Positions 6,001 to 9,000 of a stretch of 33,353 nucleotides of DNA are shown in pieces. A program made the position numbers. Within the stretch, counting starts at the first letter, position 1; every line of letters starts with the position of its first letter. Origin of the DNA: Candidatus Nezhaarchaeota archaeon WYZ-LMO8 (lineage in GTDB: Archaea > Thermoproteota > Methanomethylicia > Nezhaarchaeales > WYZ-LMO8); contig QNVF01000012.1 of the NCBI GenBank assembly GCA_004347965.1, positions 1-33,353 on the forward strand, read 5' to 3'.

Positions 6001-9000
6001 TCAATTGATCAGCTATAAAACGACTTGCACACCCCATGGTGTTCGGCGTCTCAATCATGATGATTCCTCCTCTCTTCAAAACCCTGAAGGCCTCTCTAAG
6101 CATGTGTTTGGGGTTGTTGAGGTGCTCTATCACCTCGAAGGCCGTAACCAAATCAAAGCTATCGTTGTTAAAGGGTAAAGGAGCTTCATCCAAGTTGCAC
6201 TTCAAAGTCTTTACGCCTTTCCTGCTTGCTCTAGCTAAGGCGCCTTCATCAACGTCTACACCGTAAACCTTCGAAGCTTCTATTATGTCGGCTACCTTCA
6301 TTGTTAAGTCGCCATCTCCACAACCTAAGTCTAAATAGCTCGGCTTGGAAGGCAGTAGCTCCCTTACCTTCTCAACTATAGCTCTTGGAACCCAAGACCC
6401 TAAGACCTCTGATATCATAATTAATGCTAACCCTCAACCCTCTTAACTCTTATCAATTGCTCGTCTTCTCTAAGTCCATAAGCTAAAATTACAAGGTCTC
6501 CAAGCTTAATTTCATTTATTTTCTTGAGGAACTTGAATGTCTCCTCTAGACCTTCATCGTAGTTAGATGCTTTAACTAAGTATCCTTTAACCCCCCATAG
6601 GACATTTAATTGCTTCAAAACCTTGAGATTCGGTGTTCCGACATAGAGGTCAACTGATGGTCTTAGTAGTGATGCTAGCCTTGCTGTATTACCGTGAATG
6701 CTATATATAATCAACTTGGCGCCCAAATCCTCTGCAAGAGATACTACTCCCTTAGTGAAGCTTGCCCATAAGCCTTTAACAGCTCGACGTCCAATCGTAC
6801 GTACGTCTTCTTCAGCAGCCTTGATTATTCTCTTAAGCCACTTAACAGCTTCAACCGGATATTTACCGATGGCAGTTTCCCCGGTCAACATCAATGCATC
6901 AACGCCCTCAGAAACAGCTAAGCTCACGTCGACAACCTCAGCCCTCGTTGGTACAGGGTTTTCCGTCATGGACTCTAAGAGTTGAGTTGCTATTATTACA
7001 GGTCTCTCCATGTCCATTGCTTTGTCGACTATGAGTTGTTGGAAGTGTGGGATCTTCTCTAAACCAATTACCATCCCCAAGTCTCCACGAGCTACCAGAA
7101 CAGCATCAGATGCCTCAATTATTCCTTCCAAGTTGTCTATAGCGGTCTTGGTCTCTATCTTAGCTATTATCTTGACGTCCTCGTAATTCCACCTCTTCAA
7201 TAAGCTCCTCAAGGACTCTACATCCAGCGAAGTCCTTACACAGCTCAATCCAACGTAATCGACCTTATGCTCTAAAGCGAACTTTAGGTCCTCCAAGTCC
7301 TTGCTAGTTAATGATGGGATATTGAAATCCTTGCCGGGAATCGCTAGGGCCTTTCTGGACTTTATGACGACGTCTGTGAGAGCCATCAGCTCCACATGGT
7401 TTGACGTTGCGTCGATTACCTCAAGCTTAACCCTACCGTCATCCATGACTATTAAGTCTCCAACTTCTAAGGAATCATATACCTCTTTAAGTGGTAGTGG
7501 TACCTCGCGTTTCTCCGCTTCGCCTCTATCACTTAAGATAAGCTTTACCCTCTCTCCCTTCTTAACTTGAATAACTCCATTAATATCTCCCAGTCTAATC
7601 GAGGGGCCACGTAAGTCACCTATTAATGTTAATGGTCTCTTCAAGGTCTCTTCGACCTTTACGAGGGAGTCTATTAATGACGACCAGAAGAAGTGATCCC
7701 CATGAGCAAAGTTTATCCTGAAGCCCGAGGCACCTGCTTCAGCCATTCCATATATGATTTCAAAGCTGCTTGAAGAGGGTCCTAAAGAGGCTATGATCTT
7801 AGTTCTAACATCTCTAGTCATGGTGTTTATCATGAATTACTAAGATTGACTATACTATAAGTGTTCTCCAAAGCTTTCCGGACCTTCATCTTACGAAATT
7901 GATTAGAGAAAAGTTTATTTTAAAACTCAAAGTGAGCTCGTAGCGTTACCGGCGGGCTGAGCTCCGCCGTTACTCCAGATGCGGCGAAGCCTCGATGAGG
8001 GCTAGCCAAGGGAGAAATCAACCTCTCCCACGGAGTTGTGGGAGGTTGTCTGGTGAAGGTACTCGAATAATACTGGTATCAGTATTTACAGCATCTCTAA
8101 TAGTAGCCAATATAACAGCATCGAAGATCATACAGCTTTGGTGGTTAACGTTTCCAGCCGGCACTTTAGCTTACTGCATCACATTTCTTTGTACAGACCT
8201 GTACACTGAGTTCTTTGGGAAACGTGAAACTGAACTTGTTGTTCTTGCAGGCTTCGTTGCCAACATCCTCATGGTTGTCTTAGTTCAAGCAGCCATAATG
8301 GCTCCCATAGCCCCCTTCCAAGAGGGTTATCAAGAGATTTATGCAAATGTCTTGGCTCCTACGTGGCGCATCGTACTAGCCAGTATGGTAGCTTACATAA
8401 TATCACAGAGCCATGACGTCTGGGCCTTTCACTTTTGGGGTAAACTGACTAGAGGCAAGCACTTATGGATACGTAACAACGCCTCAACGATGGTTAGCCA
8501 AGCCATAGACACGCTAATCTTCACGTTCATAGCATTTTGGGGTGCCATCGATTTAGTCAACATATTGAACATGATGGCTACTCTCTATGTAATTAAGTGG
8601 GTCATAGCCGCACTTGACACCCCCTTCTGCTACCTAGGTGTACATCTAATACGCAAGATCACCAACTTAAAGCCCATATGGCTCAGAGGAGATGAGGTTT
8701 GAGGAAAGCAGTATCAATAGTTAGTGGAGGGCCTGATAGCATAAGCTATGCAGCTACGTGGAAAACTAGAGGTTACGTGATTTACCCGATCATATTCGAT
8801 TACGGTCAAAAGGGGCGCAAAGAGATTGAGGTAGCAAAGAATATTAGCAAGATCTTAGGGTTCGAAGAGCCTCTTGTCCTAGACATCTCATCGATCAAGA
8901 ACATATGGTTTGGAACACAGCTTTTAGATGAACGAGTGAGCGTTGAGAAGGACTATAGCCCTACCGTGGTAGTACCTATGAGGAATGTGATCTTCATAGT

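What a model noticed while it worked through the whole genome (the two positions that open the first line are those of the whole stretch)
7944..8060. New riboswitch-like RNA upstream of 7-deazaguanine (preQ0) transporter genes in archaea
A conserved, structured RNA element of about 115 nt lies in the 5' leader of the yhhQ(Vut_1/COG1738)-queC operon (g00213-g00214). It has four covarying helices and a terminal hairpin that sequesters the Shine-Dalgarno sequence. The invariant GGGAG(A)AAUCAACC segment can pair either with the aptamer (CUCC) or with the anti-SD strand, the classic layout of a translational OFF riboswitch. The same element precedes two unrelated families of queuosine/archaeosine-precursor transporters (YhhQ and QueT) in Nezhaarchaeales, Bathyarchaeia and Hecatellales. 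Its ligand is therefore most likely preQ0 or a close 7-deazaguanine. It matches no Rfam family, including the three bacterial preQ1 classes. It wo [...]
Evidence so far: A composition scan found a GC-rich (0.68) intergenic island, and C4:7750-8150 has no Rfam 15 hit at E<=1. About 100 nt are conserved at 82-93% DNA identity in 8 Nezhaarchaeales genomes of two families, while the flanks are not. Covariance model R1 finds the element in a distant family. A pattern scan of 185,579 species genomes plus the model gives 24 matches, which are 16 distinct sequences, all archaeal; none of 43 bacterial chance matches passes. In the structure test on the 16 distinct sequences, 95.3% of cells are paired versus 42-54% when partners are slid by 1-3 columns. 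Sixteen of 28 pairs change on both sides, and 0 of 500 shuffles reach the covariation score; an example is CUCC/GGAG [...]
(Added by a program. Inside this text positions count along the whole contig: contig position 1 is position 1 of the stretch shown here. "Call 12" and the like, gene names such as g00115 and contig names such as C1 are that model's own, and its searches are not shown. The text may have been shortened before it was handed on; [...] marks where a part breaks off. The agent that wrote the report below was given it as the finding of a first reader that could run no searches.)

Follow-up and report, generated by a model that had tools for sequence, protein, structure and literature searches.

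The report
Archaeal riboswitch-like leader for deazaguanine uptake
A conserved, folded stretch of RNA sits at the very start of the messenger for genes that import and finish the building block of the archaeal tRNA base archaeosine, and it looks like a metabolite-sensing switch of a kind not yet described, though nobody has shown that it binds anything.

Summary
Window 7950-8023 is a 74-nt conserved RNA core. A hairpin at 8019-8048 follows it and buries the SD-like GGGAGG and the UUG start of a YhhQ(Vut_1)-QueC operon.

I collected 26 distinct copies from genomes and metagenomes. Their four helices are 98.6% paired, against 33-55% when partners are slid, and 9 of 18 pairs change on both sides. 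A de novo fold on an independent alignment gives the same helices.

Every copy with a readable downstream gene (23 of 23 tested) precedes a YhhQ or QueT transporter, and QueC follows in 10 loci. Rfam 15 has no match.

The host genome has QueC and archaeosine TGT, but no QueD or QueE was found, so it must salvage a 7-deazaguanine. A riboswitch for preQ0 or a close relative is the best reading (about 0.6). Binding, ligand and ON/OFF direction are all inferred.

The proposed alternative pairing exists in sequence, but energy models do not show it freeing the SD.

Two caveats on novelty:
- A 2011 paper already proposed sRk28, a preQ1-riboswitch-like RNA beside a QueC-like gene in Pyrococcus.
- I found a second, different conserved leader upstream of QueT in 19 of 62 genomes of the same class.

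The parts
7914..7921 (+). TATA-like box TTTATTTT. It implies a transcript start a few nt before 7950, so the element would be the 5' end of the mRNA.
   Evidence: Read. A [CT]TT[AT]4N box lies 30-37 nt before the core in copies without the extra 5' hairpin, and 40-56 nt before it in copies with that hairpin. The start site is inferred from the usual archaeal spacing, not measured.
7950..7969 (+). P1 hairpin: CGGCGG (7950-7955) pairs with CCGCCG (7964-7969). Loop GCUGAGCU (7956-7963) has invariant G..GAGCU.
   Evidence: Outer pair is C-G 19, A-U 3, G-C 1, with one U-G wobble at pair 4. The four inner pairs never vary.
7970..7972 (+). Linker UUA with A7972 invariant.
   Evidence: Alignments A5 and A7.
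7973..7976 (+). P2 5' strand CUCC. It pairs with GGAG at 8011-8014.
   Evidence: U-A in 16 sequences and C-G in 8 at the second pair; 16 and 10 in A7. The purines are always on the 3' strand.
7977..7982 (+). Internal loop AGAUGC with AUG invariant. Y7982 co-varies with R8008 (C with A or G, U with G).
   Evidence: Read from A5. The C/A to U/G pattern is my reading of the alignment, not a tool count.
7983..8007 (+). P3 (GGC 7983-7985 with GCC 8005-8007) and P4 (AGCCU 7988-7992 with GGGCU 7999-8003). P4 loop is CGAUGA (7993-7998) with AUGA nearly invariant.
   Evidence: 7 of 8 pairs in this arm change on both sides. Loop AUGA is present in 25 of 26 sequences; L022 has AUGG.
8011..8014 (+). P2 3' strand GGAG, within GGGAGA (8010-8015). 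It can also pair with the anti-SD UCUCCC at 8024-8029.
   Evidence: duplex -11.4 kcal/mol with the anti-SD against -6.2 for P2 in G000.
8015..8023 (+). Tail AAAUCAACC. It is invariant in 25 of 26 copies; G308 has AAACC.
   Evidence: The metagenome copies were retrieved with a pattern that demands GAAATCAACC, so their invariance is by construction. The 14 copies found by BLAST or by model carry no such bias.
8019..8048 (+). Expression-platform hairpin. CAACC and UCCCACG pair with UGUGGGA and GGUUG, loop GAGU. It contains the SD-like GGGAGG (8040-8045) and the start codon UUG (8046-8048).
   Evidence: -15.5 kcal/mol for the tail plus the downstream stretch, which holds this hairpin. An equivalent hairpin is present in 23 of 23 copies.
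8046..8702 (+). yhhQ: Vut_1, queuosine-precursor transporter, 218 aa from the UUG start.
   Evidence: Pfam Vut_1 E 3.6e-53. NCBIfam TIGR00697 scores 191 bits against a cut-off of 51. Start placed by the in-frame stops in relatives.
8699..9439 (+). queC: 7-cyano-7-deazaguanine synthase, overlapping yhhQ by 4 nt.
   Evidence: Pfam QueC E 4.1e-41. SGGPDS and CGACESC motifs read.

Best explanation
The element is a cis-acting riboswitch at the 5' end of the yhhQ-queC mRNA. Its roughly 74-nt aptamer consists of a P1 hairpin, an irregular P2-P3-P4 arm and an A-rich tail. I propose that it binds a free 7-deazaguanine base. preQ0, the product of QueC and the substrate of archaeosine tRNA-guanine transglycosylase, is the most likely ligand.

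I propose that binding locks the GGGAG strand into P2, probably with the tail docked on the invariant G-C pairs of P1. The pyrimidine anti-SD strand just downstream then stays paired with the SD-like run and the start codon, so translation of the transporter and QueC falls when the base is plentiful. Without ligand, GGGAGA can capture the anti-SD strand as it emerges from the polymerase. That would leave the start region open for a time.

Shown here: the conservation, the helices, the hairpin, the gene context and the salvage genotype. Inferred: ligand binding, ligand identity, the direction of the switch and the kinetic competition.
For: 1. **Structure.** 24 distinct sequences are 98.6% paired against 33-55% when slid. 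Nine of 18 pairs change on both sides, and 0 of 500 shuffles reach the covariation score. An independent de novo fold gives the same helices.
2. **Unpaired conservation.** Unpaired stretches are as conserved as the helices: GAGCU, A of UUA, AUG, AUGA and the tail. This is expected of a binding pocket and not of a plain hairpin.
3. **Gene context.** All 21 tested downstream proteins are Vut_1 (8) or QueT (13). The divergent G308 copy also precedes QueT. The second copy in G195 and G215 precedes a Vut_1 fragment and QueC.
   - These two families are unrelated to each other.
   - They are the ones under preQ1 riboswitches in bacteria (PMC5372724, passages read).
   - QueC is the next gene in 10 loci, and an ABC ATPase in 5.
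4. **Position.** A TATA-like box sits at the right distance to start the transcript at the element.
5. **Expression platform.** A hairpin holds the SD-like run in 23 of 23 copies. P2's 3' strand is always purine-rich, and it pairs better with the anti-SD than with its P2 partner in 16 of 23 copies.
6. **Physiology.** G000 is 93% complete. It has TGT and QueC. PF01242 (QueD) gave no match. The best QueE-like radical-SAM ORFs are NrdG2, MoaA and others. QueD was found in 3 of 41 relatives. The lineage therefore depends on imported 7-deazaguanines, which makes feedback control of uptake sensible.
7. **Not a known family.** There is no Rfam 15 match.
Against: - No binding or expression data exist, and no RNA run holds the stretch.
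- The single sequence is not more stable than shuffles (z = -0.81).
- Energy models at 37 and 75 C keep the SD hairpin whether P2 is enforced or blocked. Mean unpaired probability over the SD-to-start stretch changes by 0.00-0.08 at 37 C in 20 of 23 copies, and by up to 0.18 in the other three. Secondary structure alone therefore shows no switch.
- In the second clade the P2-3':anti-SD complementarity equals a reversed-strand control.
- In the G000 clade the tail's CAACC is itself part of the start-codon helix. If the tail docks on ligand binding, this could produce an ON switch instead.
- Fifteen of 17 other QueT or Vut_1 loci in relatives lack the element with filters off, so it is not required for these genes.
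- Much of the covariation may trace to a few deep splits between clades. The shuffle control does not correct for relatedness.
Confidence: 0.6

Rival explanations
1. The RNA is the same, but it senses the substrate rather than the product. The ligand would be 7-carboxy-7-deazaguanine (CDG) or another salvaged precursor, and binding would turn the operon ON. The docked tail would withdraw CAACC from the helix that covers the UUG start.
For: QueC, the enzyme that uses CDG, is co-transcribed in 10 loci behind either transporter family. No QueD or QueE was found in G000, so QueC needs imported CDG to have any role. In the G000 clade the start codon pairs with CAA of the tail. Blocking the tail raises the modelled SD/start accessibility by 0.07-0.33 at 37 C in the 10 YhhQ copies.
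Against: In QueT copies the tail is mostly outside the hairpin, and blocking it changes almost nothing. Nine loci carry the transporter without QueC or an ATPase downstream. Known riboswitches on these transporter families in bacteria are OFF switches for the end product (PMC5372724). Induction of an importer by its own substrate gives positive feedback.
Confidence: 0.15
2. It is a protein-binding leader. A pathway protein or a general RNA-binding protein recognises the conserved loops and represses translation, with no small molecule bound by the RNA itself. Candidates are archaeosine TGT, QueC or an L7Ae-type protein.
For: The loops and P1 are very conserved in sequence, as protein sites often are. 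TGT enzymes bind hairpin loops, and a bacterial TGT is reported to modify an mRNA (PMC1950534, title and abstract start seen). The energy model shows no intrinsic switch.
Against: By inspection of A5 there is no tandem G.A kink-turn at either internal loop. No candidate regulator gene is conserved beside the element; the neighbours differ between loci. The same RNA serves two unrelated transporters in two classes, which fits a shared metabolite signal more simply.
Confidence: 0.13
3. It is a ligand-free structured 5' UTR. It would act as an mRNA-stabilising cap or as an RNA thermometer in a hot-spring organism, and it spread together with the transporter genes.
For: The DNA occurs in hot-spring metagenome runs. 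The start hairpin is marginal at 75 C in the model. An extra 5' hairpin abuts P1 in 12 of 25 copies.
Against: A thermometer needs only the SD hairpin, not 74 nt of invariant loops. The element accompanies two unrelated gene families, so it did not simply travel with one gene. The association with the 7-deazaguanine pathway would be left unexplained.
Confidence: 0.07

Closest known systems
preQ1-II riboswitch (the COG4708/QueT leader of Lactobacillales; Rfam accession RF01054 recalled from memory)
   Same: It lies in the 5' leader of a QueT gene, acts on translation through the SD, and senses a 7-deazaguanine. That QueT is under preQ1 riboswitches was read in passages of PMC5372724.
   Different: The Rfam model gives no match at E<=10 on the window or at E<=1 on 12 other copies. 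Here the SD is in a separate downstream hairpin and not, as far as shown, in an aptamer pseudoknot. The hosts are archaea, which use preQ0 rather than preQ1.
preQ1-I and preQ1-III riboswitches (RF00522 and RF02680, accessions recalled from memory)
   Same: They control yhhQ/COG1738 and queC-type operons in bacteria (PMC5372724). The gene context and likely logic are the same.
   Different: No Rfam match. preQ1-I is recalled to be a pseudoknot of about 34 nt. This element is 74 nt, with two hairpin domains and a tail.
sRk28 of Thermococcales (Phok et al. 2011, PMC3124441)
   Same: It is an archaeal RNA of about 70 nt, conserved and detected by Northern blot, next to a QueC-like gene (PAB1992). 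The authors say it 'shares several features with the bacterial preQ1 riboswitch' (passages; alignment seen in supplement file 4). By eye it shares a GAUGAC motif at the 3' end of a loop, and a GAG just after the 5' strand of its first stem.
   Different: It comes from a different phylum and lies inside an operon. It is drawn as one hairpin with a pseudoknot, followed by a second hairpin. I could not align it to this element by eye. It remains unvalidated in the text I read.
Second QueT leader found here ('M2', GGCGGGUGAGUGG..CUCCCACCCGUUCCGCC...AAACCCCGG.GU.GGGAGG)
   Same: It occurs in the same archaeal class, at the same position before QueT, and ends in the SD-like GGGAGG. It shares GGCGGG..GAG...CCGCC with P1 of the finding.
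   Different: Model R2 scores it at 13 bits or less. It is shorter, lacks the P2-P4 arm and shows almost no covariation in the 19 copies.

Membership tests
preQ1 riboswitch classes I, II and III (Rfam) | Match to the family covariance model | tested here: not met
   cmscan of window 7750-8200 at E<=10 and of 12 other loci at E<=1 gave no preQ1 family hit.
preQ1 riboswitch classes I, II and III (Rfam) | Located in leaders of queuosine-precursor transport or synthesis genes | tested here: met
   Downstream proteins are 8 Vut_1 and 13 QueT of 21 tested. QueC is the next gene in 10 loci.
preQ1 riboswitch classes I, II and III (Rfam) | Selective binding of preQ1 or preQ0 | not testable with these tools
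   Needs in-line probing or ITC.
Riboswitch (generic) | Conserved structured aptamer in the 5' UTR, with covariation and conserved unpaired bases | tested here: met
   The promoter box is placed for a transcript start at the element (inferred, not mapped).
Riboswitch (generic) | Expression platform overlapping the SD, the start codon or a terminator | tested here: met
   A hairpin with the SD-like run is present in 23 of 23 copies. The start codon is inside the helix in the G000-clade YhhQ copies.
Riboswitch (generic) | Mutually exclusive ligand-free and ligand-bound structures | tested here: inconclusive
   The alternative P2-3':anti-SD duplex exists (median -9.6 against -6.4 kcal/mol for P2). 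However, the SD hairpin persists in all modelled states.
Riboswitch (generic) | Direct ligand binding that changes gene expression | not testable with these tools
sRk28 (Thermococcales leader RNA) | Sequence or structure homology to the published sRk28 alignment | not tested
   Compared only by eye with supplement file 4. Only short shared motifs were seen. The sequence is not a stored locus, so no model search was run.
Kink-turn / L7Ae-binding leader | Three-nt bulge followed by tandem sheared G.A pairs | tested here: not met
   By inspection of A5: the internal loops are AGAUGY/RAR and GA(A)/(U)A. No tandem GA/GA arrangement is present.

The most novel reading that the evidence does not exclude
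This would be the first riboswitch class confined to Archaea. It would sense preQ0, the free base that becomes archaeosine in tRNA. It would also be one of at least two unrelated RNA leaders (this element and 'M2', with sRk28 of Thermococcales possibly a third) that archaea evolved for 7-deazaguanine salvage genes, mirroring the three bacterial preQ1 classes. That would mean the apparent poverty of riboswitches in archaea is a discovery bias rather than a biological fact.
Probability: 0.45. Interest if true: 0.85.

Novelty: new variant of a known kind. Interest (0 to 1): 0.74.

Why it matters
**Why a specialist would care.** Archaea are reported to use very few riboswitch classes, mainly TPP and fluoride, both shared with bacteria (PMC5473149, passages read). 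A class built on a new fold and found only in archaea would change that picture. It would also give the field a defined RNA of about 100 nt to test.

**What it says about the organisms.** The gene context points to a way of life that has been little studied. These hot-spring archaea appear to lack the early 7-deazaguanine pathway and to live on imported precursors for an essential tRNA modification. Transporter-QueC operons suggest salvage of the carboxy intermediate as well as preQ0.

**Practical use.** If the ligand is confirmed, the aptamer would be a thermostable sensor for 7-deazaguanines. It would also serve as a marker for annotating salvage genes in uncultured archaea.

Tried and rejected
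- **Expression evidence:** no RNA holder was listed for window 7700-8700. All 17 holders are hot-spring DNA contig sets.
- **First genome pattern:** my pattern demanded ACTC...GGAGAAATCAACC and was too strict. It returned 7 known copies and 1 alphaproteobacterial chance match.
- **Weak model hits:**
  - G305 (28 bits, E 0.008) lies between an Alba gene and an Lrp/AsnC regulator, with no Q-related gene nearby. About one such hit is expected by chance in 151 genomes, so I rejected it as a member.
  - G227 (24 bits) is a truncated match and was also rejected.
- **Pseudoknot between the P1 loop (GG..GA) and the tail (UC..CC):** the two central positions vary (UU, CU, CA, UA, CC) while the tail stays fixed. 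There is therefore no covariation support.
- **Pairing of GUU (7969-7971) with AAC of the tail:** broken in the copies with AUU or GUC.
- **ATG at 7995 as the gene start** (ORF listing gives 7995-8702): rejected, because relatives have in-frame stops inside the core.
- **QueE search:** the TIGR03365 model gave only weak radical-SAM hits. NCBIfam names these NrdG2, MoaA and others.
- **Literature:** nine searches for an archaeal preQ0/preQ1 riboswitch found only the sRk28 paper. A 2026 preprint on noncoding clusters (10.64898/2026.10.21.760802) has no mention of preQ, queuosine, QueT or YhhQ in its main text; its supplements are closed.
- **Tool error:** one Pfam call failed on a reference containing stop codons. 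I re-sent it without that item.
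Full report
**What is at the site.** Between a pyruvate kinase gene on the minus strand (6427-7833) and a plus-strand pair of genes lies a 212-nt spacer. Its last 100 nt are far more G+C-rich (0.62) than the rest (0.34-0.38). The plus-strand genes are a Vut_1/YhhQ transporter and QueC. Vut_1 scores Pfam E 3.6e-53, and NCBIfam names it 'queuosine precursor transporter' at 191 bits against a cut-off of 51. QueC scores Pfam E 4.1e-41 and carries the SGGPDS and CxxCxxC motifs. The two genes overlap by 4 nt.

- The ORF listing starts the transporter at ATG 7995. Relatives have in-frame stops inside the conserved RNA (L003, L050, L045, L007). The only start shared by all seven G000-clade YhhQ copies is a UUG or GUG 22-24 nt after the core. 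In the window this is 8046.
- A TTTATTTT box at 7914-7921 sits 36 nt before the core. Equivalent boxes lie 30-37 nt upstream in copies without an extra 5' hairpin, and 40-56 nt upstream in copies with one. The usual archaeal TATA-to-start spacing is my own knowledge, not a tool result. On that spacing the transcript should begin a few bases before the element.

**Is it real?** The window sequence alone folds no better than shuffles (z = -0.81). The case therefore rests on comparison.

- BLAST with 7930-8075 found the element in 9 of 41 related genomes, G000 included, at 79-95% identity. The flanks do not align.
- From these nine I built model R1. It found a copy in another class of the same phylum (G080; 3 of 151 sampled genomes matched).
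DNA was held for 80 of them. R1 scored 21 of those at 72-102 bits, and the next best at 16 bits. The separation is clean.
- Model R2, built from 24 distinct sequences, found two further genomes with two copies each in G080's class (G195 and G215, from 151 sampled). In G000's own class it hit 10 of 62 genomes, including a divergent copy at 40 bits in G308.

**Structure.** On the 24 distinct sequences the 18 modelled pairs are standard pairs in 98.6% of cells. The figure is 32.8-54.7% when 3' partners are slid by 1-3 columns. Nine pairs show changes on both sides, and no shuffle out of 500 reaches the covariation score. That alignment was fitted to the model, so I also ran RNAalifold on a plain MAFFT alignment of 26 sequences. 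It recovered the same helices.

Its outer pair is C-G (19), A-U (3) or G-C (1), and one copy has a U-G wobble.
- P2 switches between CUCC/GGAG and CCCC/GGGG, and is CCCUC/GAGGG in G308.
- P3 and P4 vary freely. Seven of 8 pairs in that arm change on both sides.
- Several unpaired stretches are equally conserved: G..GAGCU in the P1 loop, the A of the UUA linker, AUG in the P2/P3 internal loop, AUGA in the P4 loop, and the tail AAAUCAACC.
- In 12 of 25 copies a small hairpin of varying sequence abuts P1 on the 5' side.

Two cautions apply.

- The metagenome copies were retrieved with a pattern that fixes part of P1 and the tail. Their invariance there is by construction. The 14 copies found by BLAST or by model carry no such bias, and only G308 departs (tail AAACC, longer P1 loop).
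- The sequences fall into a few clades, and the shuffle control does not correct for relatedness.

**Gene context.** I translated the first gene after each copy.

- All 21 tested proteins are Vut_1 (8) or QueT (13), each above Pfam's cut-off.
- The G308 copy also precedes QueT.
- The second copy in G195 and G215 precedes a Vut_1 ORF lacking its N-terminal part, followed by QueC.
- One metagenome contig (L047) ends 4 nt after the core.
- The next gene is QueC in 10 loci, behind either transporter family. It is an ABC ATPase, as in ECF importers, in 5 loci. Other neighbours differ from locus to locus.

Passages of PMC5372724 state that yhhQ and queT lie under preQ1 riboswitches in bacteria. They also state that archaeal homologues imply preQ0 salvage for archaeosine.

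In G000 (93% complete):

- I found archaeosine-type TGT (263 bits) and one QueC.
- I found no QueD (the control rang in 10 of 14 reference genomes).
- I found no QueE. The best radical-SAM candidates are NrdG2, MoaA and unassigned proteins.

QueD turned up in only 3 of 41 relatives. The lineage therefore appears to import 7-deazaguanines. A co-transcribed QueC suggests that the carboxy intermediate (CDG) is imported as well as, or instead of, preQ0.

**Expression platform and mechanism.** In 23 of 23 copies the tail is followed at once by a hairpin. Its 3' strand carries a purine run matching the SD: GGGAGG, GGAGGU, GGUGAGG or GGGGGUG. In QueT copies an AUG or GUG lies at SD-like spacing. In the seven G000-clade YhhQ copies the UUG or GUG start follows GGGAGG directly or within 2 nt. 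There the start codon itself is in the helix, and in the window it pairs with CAA of the tail.

The pairing is there.

- In G000, GGGAGA and UCUCCC form 6 pairs (-11.4 kcal/mol against -6.2 for P2).
- Over 23 copies the median is -9.6 against -6.4, and this pairing is at least as strong as P2 in 16 copies.
- P2 never flips its purines to the 5' strand, although P3 and P4 flip freely. This fits a need to mimic the SD.

The anti-SD:SD helix is stronger still (median -14.2). When P2 is blocked in the model, the SD hairpin persists at 37 and at 75 C, and SD accessibility hardly changes. For the second clade a reversed anti-SD control pairs equally well. Any switch must therefore be kinetic, working through co-transcriptional capture of the anti-SD strand, or must rest on tertiary docking that these models cannot see. 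I keep OFF-by-product as the most likely logic, by analogy and because it suits an uptake system. The direction is not shown. An ON switch through withdrawal of the tail is a real alternative for the YhhQ copies.

**Comparison with what is known.**

- Rfam 15 has no match at permissive thresholds on the window or on 12 other copies. The element is therefore not a member of the three preQ1 classes, though it probably works like them.
- Nine full-text searches found no archaeal preQ0 or preQ1 riboswitch, with one exception. Phok et al. 2011 (PMC3124441; passages and one supplement alignment seen) described sRk28. This is a conserved 70-nt RNA next to a QueC-like gene in Thermococcales. The authors wrote that it shares features with the preQ1 riboswitch. 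By eye it has a different layout and shares only short motifs with this element. I could not test this with tools.
- McCown et al. 2017 (PMC5473149, passages) report that archaea use very few known classes, chiefly TPP and fluoride.
- Subscription journals, and the supplements of bioRxiv preprints, were not searchable.

**A second leader.** I checked transporter genes in relatives that lack the element; 15 of 17 such loci score below 13 bits with filters off. There I saw a different conserved block upstream of QueT: GGCGGGUGAGUGG..CUCCCACCCGUUCCGCC, then an A-rich stretch, then CCCCGG.GU.GGGAGG.

- An 18-mer from it, allowing 2 mismatches, hits 22 of 62 genomes of the class. Nineteen of these carry the whole block.
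- The downstream ORF is QueT in 17 of 17 tested. Two copies were not tested in that call. For G019 my ORF call was in the wrong frame, but one search lists a QueT match 62 nt downstream. In G014 the QueT has an in-frame TGA.
- It has no Rfam match in the three copies searched, and almost no covariation.
- G014 has both leaders, on different genes.
- G007, of G000's own family, carries a third form that looks like the finding's element with an extra helix, a different P1 loop and a different tail (9.7 bits).

Several distinct RNA leaders on the same salvage genes strengthen the regulatory reading. They also recall the several preQ1 classes of bacteria.

**Verdict.** The element is a genuine, structured, cis-regulatory leader tied to 7-deazaguanine uptake in at least two classes of one archaeal phylum. 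A riboswitch for preQ0 or a close 7-deazaguanine is the best explanation (0.6). Substrate sensing, a protein partner, or a ligand-free structure remain possible. As a kind it is a new variant: a new fold, in a new domain of life, probably with a slightly different ligand. It is directly testable in vitro.

Noticed in passing
L189-L194, L197-L208, L210 (about 60-80 nt before the QueT domain; e.g. L210:1483-1560): A second, different conserved leader upstream of QueT: GGCGGGUGAGUGG..CUCCCACCCGUUCCGCC...AAACCCCGG.GU.GGGAGG. The whole block is present in 19 of 62 genomes of the class. The downstream ORF is QueT in 17 of 17 tested. It has no Rfam match in the three copies searched, almost no covariation, and scores 13 bits or less with R2. 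It may be a second candidate riboswitch class.
   Followed up: partly
L175 (G007), minus strand, upstream of QueT: A divergent form of the finding's element in G000's own family. It has the same P1 stem, UUACUCC and GGAGAAAU. It differs in a 14-nt P1 loop, an extra 8-bp helix before the AUGC motif, and the tail AAAUUCUCCC. R2 scores it at only 9.7 bits.
   Followed up: partly
L188:1501-1579 (G308): A divergent member at 39.6 bits, upstream of QueT. P2 is CCCUC/GAGGG, the P1 loop is 13 nt, and the tail is AAACC instead of AAAUCAACC. AGAUGC and the GAUGA loop are kept.
   Followed up: yes
window 7995-8045: The ATG at 7995 lies in the P4 loop and is in frame with yhhQ in this genome, so ORF callers extend the gene 51 nt into the RNA (235 aa against 218 aa). 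Relatives have stop codons in this frame.
   Followed up: yes
whole genome G000 and 40 relatives: QueD (PF01242) was not found in G000 and was found in only 3 of 41 genomes of the sample. No QueE was found in G000, while QueC and TGT are present. This suggests widespread dependence on imported 7-deazaguanines, possibly the carboxy intermediate.
   Followed up: partly
L144 and L145 (G215:C92 and G195:C117), downstream of the second copy: The Vut_1 ORF behind this copy starts only at profile position 29, and no ORF of 80 aa or more begins within 150-200 nt of the element. This may be a frameshift, a pseudogene or an assembly error. QueC follows.
   Followed up: partly
L142:1501-1579 (G305), minus strand: An AT-rich 28-bit match with a fully different but paired P1 (AGGUUU/AAACCU), UUAC and the tail CAAUCAACC, but a broken P2. 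It lies between an Alba gene and an Lrp/AsnC regulator. It is probably chance (E 0.008 per genome over 151 genomes), though a relic cannot be excluded.
   Followed up: partly
12 of 25 copies, directly 5' of P1 (not in the window copy): An optional 4-6-bp hairpin of varying sequence ends exactly at the base before P1. The TATA-like box is moved upstream by a matching distance.
   Followed up: partly
L171:1224-1280 (G023), minus strand, upstream of a QueT gene: Weak matches to archaeal C/D-box sRNA families (sR2 E 0.029, sR11 E 0.18), all below gathering scores.
   Followed up: no
G014:C9:41627-42045: The QueT gene behind the second type of leader has an in-frame TGA in this genome, which also carries the finding's element on its yhhQ-queC operon.
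   Followed up: no
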